Source of the DNA: Candidatus Jordarchaeales archaeon
Lineage (GTDB): Archaea; Asgardarchaeota; Jordiarchaeia; Jordiarchaeales; Freyrarchaeaceae
DNA length: 32,000 bases
Direction of reading: 5' to 3'
NCBI GenBank assembly: GCA_038889235.1
Contig: JAWAHN010000001.1
Location: 944,499-976,498, forward strand
Part shown: one piece after another, positions 19,061-28,238 of the stretch
Layout: each line of letters starts with the position of its first letter
Position numbering within the stretch: position 1 is the stretch's first letter
Program-made: the position numbers and the translations under genes
Notes under the pieces: generated by a model
Databases searched by the model: none
Told to the model about the DNA's origin: nothing
Seen by the model: the letters and a program-made list of their open reading frames with translations, nothing else

Positions 19061-20213
19061 ATGTGGCGTGTTGTTCGCCCAGACTCGATTAACGTGTGGA
19101 ACGATGAACAAGTCTTAAATAGGCTCAAACGTTACTACGAGGTTTTTAACGGCAGAAAGTTCGCTAAAATGATTATTGCAAGTAGGGTGGAAGTTGACGA
19201 CGACCTTGAAGCTCCCACAAAGAAGCTTTGGGATCAACATAGAAAGGCTAGTGGAGTTTTTCGCCGCCTCCTTAAAGAAATAGACCAGGGCGACACGAAA
19301 TTAAATAACTTAGACACTCCCAAGACGTCTTACCTAGATTTAAAGGTGGAGCTTGCAAAGCGAATATTAACAAACTGCCATTTTTGTGAAAGAAGATGTG
19401 GTGTAAATAGGCTGGCGGGGGAGCGGGGCTTTTGCCAGCTTGATGCTAAAGCATATGTATCGTCAGCCTTCCTTCACCTCGGGGAAGAAGCTCCCTTGGT
19501 TCCTTCGGGCACAAACGCCAGAGGCCCCCTCTGGTGGTGCAATCTTTTTTAACATGTGCACTTTCAGGTGCGTCTTCTGCCAAAATCACGACATTTCAAC
19601 TGTAATAGATGGCGTCGAAGTCGATGGAGAAAAACTGGCTAGTTTAGCACGCCATTTAAAGAGGGAGGGGGCCCGAAACATAAACTATGTCGGCGGAGAC
19701 CCGACGCCATCGTCATACGTAATTCTTGATGCTATAAGAATTCTTGCACGTACAGGGACAAACATTGTTCAGCTATGGAACTCCAATTTCTACTGTAGCA
19801 AGGAGTTGATGACGCTGCTTTTCGACGTCATAGACTTCTGGCTTCCAGACTTCAAGTATGGCAACGATAATTGTGCAGAAACACTTTCAAAAGTTAGGAA
19901 GTACTTTGACGTAGTGTCTAGAAATCATAAGCTCGCATATGATGAAACCGTCGTAGAGGGTAGCTCGGGAATGATAATACGTCACCTAGTAATGCCTGGG
20001 CACATAGATTGTTGCACAAAGCCTATTCTAGAATGGATCGCTAAAAATACTCCATTAGCCCTTGTTAATGTAATGGCACAGTACCATCCCGACTATCTTG
20101 TTCCAAGGAGTCCTGAATACAAGGACATAAACCGTAGGGTAACCGCCAGGGAAATGAAGGAAGCCTATGATTACGCTGACGCACTAGGCCTATTGTGGAG
20201 GCCAGTTAGCTAA
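19061..20213 (+). CDS. pflX: PflX-like radical SAM protein, spliced: join(19061..19514,19543..20213), 374 aa
   Basis: CHFCERRCGVNR..G..GFC, HLGEEAPLVPSGT|IFF, CTFRCVFC, VGGDPTP, WNSNFY, DFKYGND, IIRHLVMPGH, NVMAQYHP. The two track ORFs join in frame after removing 28 nt. Confidence 0.88.
19515..19542 (+). other. BHB intron in mRNA (28 nt)
   Basis: Central helix GCAC/GTGC, bulges AA|A and AA|T, 9-bp inner hairpin, outer pairs G-C and G-U. Confidence 0.88.
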
Positions 20214-25355: not shown

Positions 25356-26498
25356 CTATATAAAAAGATATTCAGCACCTCCAGTTTTGCTCCGGGTTTT
25401 GAAAATTTCGCTCAAAACTTCTTCTATCAATTGCTGGTCTATTTTGTCTGCATTTTTTATGATTGCCCTATGGAACGCAGTTTTAAGCAATTTCTCCTTT
25501 AAATCTCTTCCAGAGAACCCTTCAGTTATAGAGGCTATTTTGTCGAAGTCACACTCAACTTTGAGGGGAATCTTCTTGGCGTACATCTCGAGAATCTGCC
25601 TTCTTTCCTCTAGCGATGGCAGCGTGAACTCGATTTCCTCCTCAAACCTGTTTCTAAGGGCCAAATCTAATAGCATTAAGTTGTTTGTGGCCCCGATGCA
25701 CACAACACCCGGTGTAAGCTCCAGCTTATCCATCTCTGCCAGGAGGGCGTTAACCACCTCAGTGACGTCGCCCCTTACACTTTGAAACCTTCTATCGAGC
25801 CCTATAGCATCTATCTCGTCTAAATATACGACACTTGGGGCTGCCTCTCTCGCTCTCCTGAAAAGCCTACTTATTTTACTCGCCGCATCACCTACGTGGG
25901 TGCCTATGAGTTCAGGCGATTTAACGAAGAAAAACTCTGCTCCAGCCTCATTAGCCAGTGCTTGTGCCGTCATCGTTTTTCCCGTTCCTGGAGGACCATA
26001 AAAGAGAATGATTCTAGGCGCCCAGTCACCAAAAGCTTCTGGGCTTTCTAAGTACTTTTTTATGATCATGCACTTTTCTTTAGCCCTTTGTTGTCCGACA
26101 ACATCCGCGAGTGTAATCTTGGGAAACCGCGTAGAGGGGCGTCTTTCCGCTTTCTTAATTACTTTAAATACAGTTTTATTGGTAATTTGCCCCTCACTAG
26201 GTGTCATGTCGACTATCTTGAAAGCGAAGTCTGGAAAAAGGGACCTATCAAAAAGCAGATCTCCCTTTTTGACGTATAATCCATCCCATTGTTCTCTGGC
26301 ATACGCTTGGAATACCTCAGGATTATCCACAGTCAATATAGTCTCTTTGTCCTCTCCTATTTCCCTTAAAGGGTATCCTAAAGGTTCAAGTTCTACTAGT
26401 ACTGCCTGTTTTATTCTCTCTTTGCTTTTCTTATGCTTTTTTAGACTTTTGTAGTATACTTTTTCCTTTTCTAATTCCTCATTAACCAAGTACTTCAC
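25356..26498 (-). CDS. Single-ring AAA ATPase (archaeal predicted-ATPase type with N-terminal EQW..LFD domain)
   Basis: GPPGTGKT, YLDEIDAI, GATN, RNRFEEEIEF, GFSGRD. GTG start overlaps the dnaG TGA. Confidence 0.88.
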   Translation of the reverse strand: MKYLVNEELEKEKVYYKSLKKHKKSKERIKQAVLVELEPLGYPLREIGEDKETILTVDNPEVFQAYAREQWDGLYVKKGDLLFDRSLFPDFAFKIVDMTPSEGQITNKTVFKVIKKAERRPSTRFPKITLADVVGQQRAKEKCMIIKKYLESPEAFGDWAPRIILFYGPPGTGKTMTAQALANEAGAEFFFVKSPELIGTHVGDAASKISRLFRRAREAAPSVVYLDEIDAIGLDRRFQSVRGDVTEVVNALLAEMDKLELTPGVVCIGATNNLMLLDLALRNRFEEEIEFTLPSLEERRQILEMYAKKIPLKVECDFDKIASITEGFSGRDLKEKLLKTAFHRAIIKNADKIDQQLIEEVLSEIFKTRSKTGGAEYLFI

Positions 26499-27722
26499 CC
26501 TTCTTGCTCCATCATTATTTCATTGAATTCCATCACTTTGAGCTCTGCCGGCCTTTTGACCACATTTTCCTGGCGAACCCCAACAATCCACCTAGCACCC
26601 TTTTCTTGCGAAATGTCAATAAGTCTCTGCGTAACTATCCCGTCGAGAACTATGCCCCCGATTTTCTCATTAATGTTTCGAAGGTAATCTGCTAGCTCCG
26701 ATACTTCGACTTCTGCTACCATGTTAAGGTTCTCTCCAAGTATCCTTGCCTTACCAGTGTTGAAAATTGCTTTCGAGTGCTCAATCACTTCCTGCGGAAC
26801 CCTGCTCACTTTCTTAACAACTTGTTGTACTTTCTTTTCTTCACGTTTCTTCATTTGCTCTTGCTCGACTATTTGCTCGACGGGTACCTTGTTGTTCAAT
26901 GCTTTCACTATCTCTTTGAAAGTAAGGTCTTCGACCTCACGGCCAGGGGGTGCTCTAGCAATATAATCTATGTCCGCGACCTGCAGTAACTCTTTCAAAA
27001 TTAAGTCGCCGCCTCTGTCTCCATCCAGAAAAGCTGTTACTACTTTTTTCTTACTCAGCTCGATTATCGTTTTCGGGATGCTGGTTCCCTCTACCGCTAT
27101 GACGTTCTTGAAGCCGTGTTTTAACATATTAAGCACGTCAGCTCTACCTTCAACTATGATGATTTCGTCTGACGAGTCTATTTCTGGGCCTGCGGGCAGC
27201 CCTTCTTTTCCATATTTGCATATCTCCGCCGTTCTTACCGCTTCAAGGACCTTGTTGACTATCTGTTCTGTCTCTGGGGAAACCTCCTCCGGCCACCTTC
27301 TTAGAATTTCAACGGCCCGCTCAATAATCCTCTTTCGTTTACTTTCTCTAACATCCTCTATAGATTCAAATGTCACTTTAGCGCTGCATGGCCCTATTCT
27401 GTCAATAGTTTCGAGTGCCGCTGCAAGGATGGCTGTCTCAACTTTATCAAGACTTGAAGGAACAATTATCTCCCCTATAGCTTTACCTCCATGATACTCA
27501 AGTTCTGCCTTTATACGCCCTATTCTCCCCGTGCGTTGAAGCTCTCTTAGATCCATGTCAGATCCGAGAAGCCCCTCCAATTTGCCTACGTGAGCCGCGA
27601 CCGGCTCCACGTAATTGGCCGAATATTGCTCCTATGACATCGGGCTTCTCGACAACACCATTTACCTCTATTTTTGCTTTTATAATGTATTTTATCGTGC
27701 CGATATCATTTCGATCAGCCAT
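26495..27722 (-). CDS. dnaG: Archaeal DnaG (TOPRIM primase-like, exosome-associated), spliced: join(27722..27615,27580..26495), 397 aa
   Basis: Exon 1 [36 protein letters not shown] follows SD GGAGGTGA. Exon 2 [23 protein letters not shown]...IVEGRADV...FLDGDRGG. The two parts are in different frames. Confidence 0.92.
27581..27614 (-). other. BHB-like intron in dnaG mRNA (34 nt)
   Basis: TTACGTGGAGCCGGTCGCGGCTCACGTAGGCAAA. Helix GGCC/GGCA, bulges AA|T and AA|T, 11-bp inner hairpin. Confidence 0.85.
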
Positions 27723-27729
27723 ATAAATA

Positions 27730-27737
27730 TCACCTCC
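27730..27737 (-). promoter_or_regulatory. Shine-Dalgarno sequence of dnaG exon 1
   Basis: GGAGGTGA, 7 nt upstream of ATG 27722. Confidence 0.8.
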
Positions 27738-27839: not shown

Positions 27840-28238
27840 TTAGAGTTCTTCAAACAAGCTCTCCGTTTTAAAGTACATTTTGGCAAAGCCCTCCACGCAT
27901 GGTGTTATGTACGTTCTCAGCCTCCTTATTTTCTCTCTAAAGTAAGTTGTTAAATTGCTGGCGTCTATCATATAAGATAAGATTGTCGCTGCTAGTCTTT
28001 CTCCCTCTTTATCGAAGTCGGTCAGAATTATAACTTCTCTACCTCTGTTTCTCTCGACTATTTCGTGTATTTTTACACCCGAGATTGTTATTATTGGGCC
28101 TCTAAATCCTATCTTCCTCAGACTGTCTCTATCTTTTTTACCCTCAACTATAAGTGTAACTCCTCTCTCTGAGTATTCTTTTATCTCGTCCAAGATTTCT
28201 TTGAACATTTCTAAAGGGTCATTTTGGGTCAAGGCCAC
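27840..28238 (-). CDS. Small TOPRIM-domain protein (primase-related / RNase M5-like)
   Basis: IVEGKKD..SL and ILTDFDKEGE TOPRIM motifs. Confidence 0.85.
   Translation of the reverse strand: MALTQNDPLEMFKEILDEIKEYSERGVTLIVEGKKDRDSLRKIGFRGPIITISGVKIHEIVERNRGREVIILTDFDKEGERLAATILSYMIDASNLTTYFREKIRRLRTYITPCVEGFAKMYFKTESLFEEL

What the first reader, a model, noticed from the sequence alone, without database searches (positions are those of the whole stretch)
27575..27622. Second mRNA intron interrupts the core gene dnaG
Seen: the conserved DnaG N-terminus ([22 protein letters not shown]) has a strong SD and ATG at 27722 but is in a different frame from the rest, which the ORF track starts at an internal GTG. 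Between them lie 34 nt forming TACGT(G)GAGCCG-GTCG-CGGCTC-ACGTA. It is flanked by GGCC+AAT and GGCA+AAT, a BHB with one G-A mismatch in the central helix and a weak outer helix. Cuts at AA|T on both sides give GGC CAA TTG GAG GGG (GQLEG) and 397 aa. Unspliced RNA stops at 27560-27558 after 54 aa. Caveat: homologues as I recall read GQTEG, so the junction residue would be Leu rather than Thr. The downstream AAA ATPase start overlaps the dnaG stop, so failed splicing could also be polar (inference).
Basis: partly seen in the sequence, partly recalled or inferred. Interest (0 to 1): 0.92.

Follow-up and report, generated by a model that had tools for sequence, protein, structure and literature searches.

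The report
tRNA-type intron splits Asgard dnaG
The only dnaG gene of this uncultured archaeon (probably Asgard, Jordarchaeia) is interrupted by a 34-base insert shaped like the introns archaea cut out of tRNAs. It most likely has to be spliced out of the mRNA before a full protein can be made, something published so far for only two archaeal mRNAs.

Summary
dnaG (minus strand) is read as exon 1 at 27722-27615 (36 aa), a 34-nt insert at 27614-27581, and exon 2 at 27580-26495 (361 aa). Removing the insert restores one 397-aa DnaG.

The insert folds as a relaxed bulge-helix-bulge (BHB): GGCC/GGCA central helix with one G.A mismatch, AAU bulges and an 11-bp inner hairpin.

Evidence that it is a real splicing-endonuclease intron:
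- dnaG is single-copy in the genome.
- Both exons are under strong purifying selection (dN/dS about 0.04).
- The genome encodes two EndA paralogues and RtcB.
- 72 split dnaG genes were analysed in four families of the same phylum. In 70, the canonical BHB cut register has 4/4 central-helix pairs and coincides with the frame-restoring junction. The two exceptions are this genome and its congener.
- The central helix covaries with the free third base of the Gly codon (C-G, A-U, U-A, G-C).
- Close relatives with a precisely intron-free gene also exist.

I found no paper describing a dnaG intron. This scan had already noted dnaG BHB introns on other DNA (said there to be Lokiarchaeal and Hermodarchaeal genomes).

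The parts
27730..27737 (-). Shine-Dalgarno-like GGAGGTGA, 7 nt upstream of the dnaG start
   Evidence: read
27615..27722 (-). dnaG exon 1: 36 codons, M..GAIFGQ, ending GGC CAA
   Evidence: matches NF003108 profile positions 1-29; dN/dS 0.04 against G003
27617..27620 (-). 5' strand of the BHB central helix (GGCC; Gly codon plus first base of the Gln codon), exonic
27614..27616 (-). 5' bulge AAU; predicted cut after the second A (between 27615 and 27614)
   Evidence: same register as the canonical BHBs of relatives
27581..27614 (-). 34-nt BHB intron
27587..27613 (-). inner hairpin h' of the intron: 11 bp with one bulged G, loop GUCG
   Evidence: MFE and centroid agree
27583..27586 (-). 3' strand of the central helix (GGCA): three Watson-Crick pairs plus one G.A mismatch with GGCC
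27580..27582 (-). 3' bulge AAU; predicted cut after the second A (between 27581 and 27580)
26495..27580 (-). dnaG exon 2: 361 codons plus stop, starting UUG GAG GGG (LEGLLG..), with the Toprim domain
   Evidence: dN/dS 0.04 against G003
27558..27560 (-). TGA that ends translation of unspliced mRNA after 54 aa
25356..26498 (-). downstream AAA+ ATPase (PRS2-type domains) whose GTG start overlaps the dnaG stop (GTGA)

Best explanation
The 34 nt at 27614-27581 are an archaeal bulge-helix-bulge intron inside the coding sequence of the genome's only dnaG.

Proposed mechanism:
1. In the pre-mRNA, exon bases GGCC pair with intron bases GGCA (three pairs plus a G.A mismatch).
2. This central helix is flanked by two AAU bulges and an 11-bp intron hairpin.
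3. The heteromeric splicing endonuclease (two EndA paralogues) cuts after the second bulge base on each strand.
4. RtcB ligates the exons.
5. The mature mRNA reads ..GGC CAA|UUG GAG.. and encodes a 397-aa DnaG with GAIFGQ-LEGLLG.
6. Unspliced mRNA yields only a 54-aa peptide.

Shown: the anatomy, single copy, selection on both exons, presence of the enzymes, and conservation and covariation of the same element in relatives.

Inferred: the cleavage, the ligation and their efficiency.
For: Anatomy and protein fit
- The insert sits exactly between DnaG profile positions 27 and 28.
- The fold has z = -3.5 and a BHB layout.

Gene status
- Only one dnaG is found in the 95%-complete genome, and it is split.
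- Two EndA paralogues are present. Read by eye, one has the Tyr/His/Lys motif positions and the other lacks the His.
- RtcB is present.
- Asgard EndA is reported as (alpha-beta)2 with the loop that gives broad substrate range (PMC5829648).
- The same insert, at 31 nt, is present in independent assemblies of a congener (G003) and a sister genus (G004).
- G004 has a perfect 4-bp helix GGUC/GACC. That is a compensatory C-G to U-A change, with the G.A mismatch replaced by G-C.
- G000 against G003: exon 1 dN 0.024, dS 0.615; exon 2 dN 0.098, dS 2.59.
- The junction Leu codon differs synonymously between genomes (TTG, TTA).

Wider survey
- 72 split dnaG were analysed in four families. In 70 the canonical cut register has 4/4 helix pairs and gives the best or near-best protein.
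- On 48 distinct site-A sequences, 96.7% of cells are paired against 9-54% when the partner is slid. The covariation score is 0.311 against 0.106 shuffled (0 of 500). The third helix pair shows CG, AU, UG, GU, GC and UA.
- Across sites A and B, insert lengths are 28-43 nt, mostly not multiples of 3 and often containing stops.
- Intron-free dnaG nested among intron-bearing relatives reads FGQTEGLL uninterrupted, which looks like precise loss.
Against:
- In this genome and G003 the central helix has only 3/4 pairs (G.A at its outer end). The outer helix is 4 weak pairs in a shifted register, so the motif is relaxed, not canonical.
- The junction residue is Leu where all other lineages examined have Thr.
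- BHB-like shapes are common by chance, about 1e-3 per register.
- 5% of the genome is unassembled, so a second intact dnaG cannot be strictly excluded.
Confidence: 0.88

Rival explanations
1. The gene is a decaying pseudogene. A 34-nt insertion (or frameshift) has inactivated dnaG, and no full-length protein is made.
For: Read conventionally the gene is broken: stop after 54 aa. The junction residue Leu deviates from the family's Thr.
Against: - It is the only dnaG in the genome.
- Both exons show dN/dS about 0.04 in their own frames.
- The insert persists in three diverged genomes, and its hairpin and helix are kept by compensatory changes.
- The same site is interrupted in dozens of other genomes.
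Confidence: 0.03
2. Translational recoding. Ribosomes bypass (hop over) or frameshift across the structured 34 nt without any RNA splicing, as in phage T4 gene 60.
For: A stable hairpin directly follows the last exon-1 codon. In several relatives a stop codon follows the take-off point.
Against: - There are no matched take-off and landing codons. CAA would have to land on a codon that puts UUG GAG in frame, and the codon before UUG is AAA.
- What is conserved and covaries is the 4-bp helix and 3-nt bulge geometry specific to EndA substrates, not a bypass signal.
- Lengths vary from 28 to 43 nt across sites A and B.
Confidence: 0.04
3. A genuinely split gene. A 54-aa N-terminal peptide and a separately initiated C-terminal protein (GTG 27610 or TTG 27580) assemble into DnaG.
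For: ORF callers list a 371-aa ORF from GTG 27610.
Against: - No Shine-Dalgarno precedes GTG 27610.
- No start codon is conserved there in relatives. G004 has TTA at the junction, and family f9 has stops immediately before TEGLL with no nearby start.
- The break lies inside the most conserved contiguous motif, GAIFGQ/TEGLLG.
Confidence: 0.03
4. Assembly or sequencing artefact inserted the 34 nt.
For: The genome is a draft of 8 contigs.
Against: Homologous inserts with different sequences are present in independent assemblies G003 and G004, and in about 70 other genomes.
Confidence: 0.01

Closest known systems
cbf5 pre-mRNA intron of Crenarchaeota (Aeropyrum, Sulfolobales, Desulfurococcales; Yokobori 2009, PMC2738675; reviewed in PMC10485636)
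   Same: - A short intron inside a protein-coding sequence with a relaxed BHB at the exon-intron borders.
- The host has a hetero-oligomeric (alpha-beta)2 endonuclease.
- Patchy gain and loss among relatives.
- A housekeeping RNA-related gene.
   Different: - A different gene (dnaG) and a different phylum (Asgard).
- Here splicing is inferred only, whereas cbf5 splicing was shown by cDNA and in vitro cleavage.
HVO_1309 mRNA of Haloferax volcanii, cut by EndA (Schwarz 2020, PMC7714728; as summarised in PMC10485636)
   Same: An mRNA carrying a BHB that is a substrate of the archaeal splicing endonuclease.
   Different: A euryarchaeon with an alpha2 enzyme and an unrelated gene. The evidence there is experimental.
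Non-canonical and multiple BHB introns of tRNA genes in Jordiarchaeia/Freyarchaeia and Atabeyarchaeia (PMC11291895; bioRxiv 10.64898/2026.10.13.758758)
   Same: - The same lineage and presumably the same enzymes.
- The same size range and relaxed motifs.
- The same pattern of repeated gain and loss.
   Different: Those are in tRNA genes. Neither paper mentions introns in mRNAs or in dnaG.
IRE1/RtcB splicing of HAC1/XBP1 mRNA in eukaryotes (own knowledge; named in PMC13149111)
   Same: Spliceosome-independent removal of a short, frame-changing intron from an mRNA by a protein endonuclease followed by ligation. RtcB is the ligase in metazoa; yeast HAC1 uses Trl1.
   Different: A different endonuclease and a different recognition motif (twin stem-loops). 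It is a regulated stress response. No regulation is shown here.

Membership tests
Archaeal BHB (splicing-endonuclease) introns | Two 3-nt bulges on opposite strands separated by a 4-bp helix (hBHBh'), or an accepted relaxed form (HBh', hBH) | tested here: met
   Relaxed form: GGCC/GGCA gives 3 pairs plus G.A, with AAU and AAU bulges, an 11-bp h' and a weak h. The sister genus G004 has the strict 4-bp helix at the same site.
Archaeal BHB (splicing-endonuclease) introns | Cuts at the symmetric bulge positions (after the second bulge base) give exons that join into a functional product | tested here: met
   AA|U and AA|U remove 34 nt and restore one 397-aa frame that is collinear with the DnaG profile.
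Archaeal BHB (splicing-endonuclease) introns | The structure is maintained in evolution (covariation in the helices) | tested here: met
   48 distinct site-A sequences: 96.7% paired, 23 double-sided changes, 0 of 500 shuffles as high, and slid controls 9-54%.
Archaeal BHB (splicing-endonuclease) introns | The host encodes the splicing endonuclease EndA and the RNA ligase RtcB | tested here: met
   Two EndA paralogues at 111 and 77 bits; RtcB at 600 bits.
Archaeal BHB (splicing-endonuclease) introns | The intron is actually excised and the exons ligated in RNA | not testable with these tools
cbf5-type pre-mRNA introns (same host gene) | Located in the cbf5 / pseudouridine synthase gene | tested here: not met
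   The host gene is dnaG (NF003108, 464 bits). It is the same kind of intron but not the same intron family.
Archaeal DnaG (NF003108) | A full-length match to the equivalog model, including the N-terminal motif and the Toprim domain | tested here: met
   The N piece matches profile positions 1-29. The exon-2 piece scores 464 bits against a 300-bit cut-off, starting at profile position 28. The genome search places its stretches at profile 21-279 and 310-418.

The most novel reading that the evidence does not exclude
dnaG introns are one visible part of a dynamic population of endonuclease-spliced introns in Asgard protein-coding genes. These introns are gained, lost precisely, and even relocated within a gene.

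Within 35 nt of dnaG I see three intron sites:
- after Gly-Gln in families f1, f4 and f9;
- inside TEGL|LG in all of f12;
- at D-I|V in four f9 genomes.

The third-site intron is up to about 80% identical (24/30) to the first-site intron of the same family in three of those four genomes, but has a re-matched helix strand.

If this is real, BHB introns behave as mobile or sliding elements in mRNAs of the closest prokaryotic relatives of eukaryotes. These cells must then splice mRNAs before, or in competition with, coupled translation.
Probability: 0.3. Interest if true: 0.9.

Novelty: new member of a known kind. Interest (0 to 1): 0.7.

Why it matters
Published archaeal mRNAs known to be processed by the tRNA-splicing endonuclease number two: cbf5 and HVO_1309 (PMC10485636). 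A frame-breaking BHB intron in a universally conserved archaeal gene has three consequences.

- **Annotation.** Gene callers report a truncated or "frameshifted" DnaG in these lineages. About 55 of about 125 genomes of one large family, and all recovered members of two others, are affected.
- **Distribution.** It extends mRNA splicing of this type to Asgard archaea, whose tRNA genes are already known to be intron-crowded.
- **Mechanism.** It poses a concrete question. How does a cell with coupled transcription and translation avoid translating the unspliced message, and does it use this step to tie DnaG supply to RNA-processing capacity?

The natural covariation series also defines what the Asgard endonuclease tolerates (G.A mismatch, G.U pairs, no outer helix).

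Tried and rejected
- **Naming close relatives.** The search for related loci on genome contigs returned only distant DnaG (41-63% identity, MAGs labelled Nanoarchaeota, Woesearchaeota or Methanosarcinales). It gave no names for the window's lineage.
- **Taxonomy.** It therefore rests on earlier scan notes plus a circumstantial match of closed-genome sizes. The same-order genome of 3.6 Mb in 1 contig matches Freyarchaeum at 3.58 Mbp. The 2.8 Mb genomes in 1 contig match Atabeyarchaeum at 2.81 Mbp.
- **Rfam and ARAGORN.** They found nothing in the window.
- **Motif-only BHB scan.** It gives about 1,400 relaxed hits per strand and is useless without the protein constraint.
- **Alternative register in this genome.** AAUU/AAUU with cuts AC|G and GG|A scores 4/4 helix pairs. 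I rejected it because it breaks the 11-bp hairpin, has only 2 inner pairs, and turns the invariant Glu of TEG into Gln.
- **Translational bypass, split gene, pseudogene and artefact.** These are treated as rival explanations.
- **Cultured or closed Asgard genomes as a test bed.** The closed genomes of family f28 (4.3, 4.4 and 6.0 Mb) and two others have an intact dnaG. No obvious cultured organism carries this intron.

Full report
**1. What is in the sequence**

On the minus strand an ATG at 27722 follows GGAGGTGA. It opens a frame reading [36 protein letters not shown], which then runs on into [18 protein letters not shown] and stops at 27560-27558.

A second frame, listed from GTG 27610, continues ..[25 protein letters not shown].. 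for 371 aa to a TGA at 26495-26497. It carries a Toprim domain.

The NCBIfam equivalog for archaeal DnaG (NF003108) matches the first piece at profile positions 1-29. It matches the second piece from position 28 onward, at 464 bits against a cut-off of 300. The two pieces are therefore one DnaG interrupted between Gln36 and the next codon by 34 nt (27614-27581), which shifts the frame by +1.

The downstream AAA+ ATPase (PRS2-type domains) starts at a GTG that overlaps the dnaG stop (GTGA).

**2. Shape of the insert**

The MFE and centroid folds of 27640-27560 agree (-31 kcal/mol; shuffles -21.4 +/- 2.7; z = -3.5; 0 of 200 shuffles as stable). Written 5' to 3' the element is:

- GGCC (exon), then
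- AA|U, then
- UACGUG-G-AGCCG, loop GUCG, CGGCU-CACGUA, then
- GGCA, then
- AA|U, then
- UGGAG (exon).

This is the layout of an archaeal BHB: a central 4-position helix, two 3-nt bulges on opposite strands, and an inner helix h' of 11 bp.

The central helix has three Watson-Crick pairs and a G.A at its outer end. The MFE instead pairs that G with U in a 4-bp outer helix (U-A, U.G, C-G, G.U), which leaves a 4-nt 3' bulge. Either way the frame-restoring cut is one base before the outer helix.

Cutting after the second bulge base on both strands removes exactly 34 nt. It gives GGC CAA UUG GAG GGG and a 397-aa protein.

A register-specific relaxed BHB arises at about 1e-3 of arbitrary position pairs in this window. 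The fold alone proves little. What counts is its coincidence with the single junction that the protein demands.

**3. Is the gene alive?**

- The 95%-complete genome (2.14 Mb, 8 contigs) holds no other dnaG.
- The same split is present in a congener (G003, 31-nt insert) and in a sister genus (G004, 31-nt insert).
- Between G000 and G003, exon 1 has dN 0.024 and dS 0.615. Exon 2 has dN 0.098 and dS 2.59. Both ratios are about 0.04, each in its own frame.
- A decaying gene would not keep two frames clean on either side of a persistent insert.
- The junction codon is Leu in all three genomes (TTG, TTG, TTA). Other lineages have Thr, so this is a lineage-specific substitution rather than a mis-placed junction.

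**4. Machinery**

The genome encodes two EndA paralogues (111 and 77 bits to PF01974). By eye, one carries the Tyr, His and Lys positions of the catalytic motif (..VYEHGPGIDHAP..SVRKK..). The other lacks the His. That is what an (alpha-beta)2 enzyme looks like, but I did not test it formally.

Kaneta et al. report that Asgard archaea have (alpha-beta)2 EndA with the L1 loop associated with cleavage of relaxed BHBs (PMC5829648). RtcB is present at 600 bits.

**5. Relatives**

I searched 400 genomes of the same phylum with exon 1, and one large family (f9) separately. After fetching the regions, I located the junction in each locus by the best ungapped fit to the DnaG motif. I then asked whether the canonical BHB register fits there.

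Of 112 loci, 40 are intact and 72 are split. In 70 of the 72 split loci, the register with cuts after the second bulge base has 4/4 central-helix pairs and gives the best or near-best protein. The two exceptions are this genome and G003 (3/4).

| Site | Position | Where found | Insert length |
|---|---|---|---|
| A | after GGN CAR (Gly-Gln), the window's site | f1 (3 of 3 recovered), f4 (2 of 2), f9 | 29-43 nt |
| B | 13 nt downstream, inside TEGL\|LG | all 17 f12 loci | 28-29 nt |
| C | 22 nt upstream, D-I\|V | four f9 genomes | 30-31 nt |

On 48 distinct site-A sequences:

- The seven pairs I specified (four of H, three of h') are paired in 96.7% of cells. When the 3' partner is slid by 1-3 columns the figure is 9-54%.
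- The covariation score is 0.311 against 0.106 for shuffles (0 of 500 as high).
- The third helix pair joins the free third base of the Gly codon to an intron base. It shows CG 31, AU 7, UG 6, GU 2, GC 1 and UA 1.
- G004 supplies the U-A and also turns the window's G.A into G-C.

Site-A and site-B insert lengths are mostly not multiples of three. Many inserts, including the in-frame 30-nt site-C ones, contain in-frame stops.

**6. Presence and absence**

- The same-order family f2 (6 of 6) and most other families have an uninterrupted FGQTEGLLG.
- Within f9, about 55 rows are split, about 68 are intact and 3 are undecidable. Single genera are mixed.
- On a DnaG tree of 31 f9 genomes, the split state is clustered: 5 changes against 10.6 for shuffled labels (0 of 500). 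At least 4 changes are forced by well-supported branches. These include an intact pair nested inside a split clade.
- Precise, scar-free absence in close kin is what intron loss looks like. It also shows that the spliced reading equals the normal gene.

**7. Rivals**

- Pseudogene and artefact are excluded by sections 3 and 5.
- Translational bypassing lacks matched take-off and landing codons. It does not explain why the EndA-specific geometry covaries.
- A two-polypeptide gene lacks any conserved start for the second piece.
- None of these rivals is formally refuted without RNA or protein data. Together I give them about 0.1.

**8. Identity of the organism**

The genome search gives no names, and my one genome-contig scan returned only distant DnaG.

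Earlier notes of this scan call the genome Asgard, Jordarchaeales. The following is consistent with that. The same-order family contains a closed 3.6-Mb genome, and another family contains two closed 2.8-Mb genomes. These match the published Freyarchaeum (3.58 Mbp) and Atabeyarchaeum (2.81 Mbp) genomes (PMC11291895). I treat the assignment as probable.

Earlier notes also describe dnaG BHB introns of 37 nt in a Lokiarchaeon and of 28 nt in Hermodarchaeia. By size and site these correspond to my f9 and f12. I verified the sequences, not the names.

**9. Literature**

- A 2023 review lists cbf5 and HVO_1309 as the archaeal mRNAs spliced by the endonuclease and expects more (PMC10485636).
- The cbf5 case is documented in PMC2738675.
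- Two papers describe the intron-crowded tRNA genes of Jordiarchaeia/Freyarchaeia and Atabeyarchaeia. Neither mentions mRNA or dnaG introns.
- No paper in the searchable library combines dnaG with bulge-helix-bulge in this sense.
- The library lacks most subscription journals, so "unreported" means not found there.

**10. Verdict**

This is a real feature: very probably an endonuclease-spliced intron in the mRNA of a core gene. It is a new member (new host gene, new phylum) of a known kind. In this genome it is a relaxed variant. Splicing itself remains to be shown.

Noticed in passing
window 19515-19542 (+): A second BHB intron in this window. A radical-SAM (PflX-like) gene is split over two frames by 28 nt. 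It has a perfect central helix GCAC/GUGC, bulges AA|A and AA|U, and a 9-bp inner hairpin. Removal joins ..LVPSGT to IFFNMCTFRCVFCQ.. just before the CxxxCxxC motif.
   Followed up: partly
L023, L031, L107-L121 (family f12): All 17 recovered dnaG of family f12 carry a 28-29-nt canonical BHB intron at a different site, 13 nt downstream of the window's site (GCCU AC|A .. GGGY AA|U). Splicing gives GQTEGLLGEDLDL.
   Followed up: partly
L097, L098, L104, L105 (family f9: G213, G247, G285, G188): A third dnaG intron site (D-I|V, 22 nt upstream; 30-31 nt). The 30-nt inserts are in frame but contain a stop. In three of the four genomes the intron sequence is up to 24/30 identical to the site-A intron of the same family (scores 11-15.5 against a shuffled maximum of 8-9.5). 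The helix strand is re-matched to the new exon bases. This suggests intron relocation within the gene.
   Followed up: partly
family f9: Presence and absence of the intron is polymorphic inside single genera (about 55 split against about 68 intact). At least 4 state changes are needed on a DnaG tree of 31 genomes, and intact genes are nested in split clades (precise loss).
   Followed up: partly
G269: C40:2541-2654 and C91:4284-4397: One f9 genome bin holds both an intact dnaG and a split dnaG on different contigs. This may be two strains binned together or a duplication.
   Followed up: no
window 27840-28238 (-): A small stand-alone Toprim-domain ORF (132 aa) lies directly upstream of dnaG. 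A 132-133-aa Toprim frame also lies next to dnaG in family f3 genomes.
   Followed up: no
ARAGORN reported no tRNA in the whole window, as expected if the gene is heavily interrupted.
   Followed up: no
window 27580-27620 (-): The near-direct repeat at the intron ends (GGCCAAUU / GGCAAAUU) follows from a self-complementary central helix (GGCC pairs with GGCC-like) plus similar bulges. Relatives with GGAC/GUUC or GGUC/GACC helices have no such repeat. The repeat need not be an insertion footprint (see note e1-5423877).
   Followed up: partly
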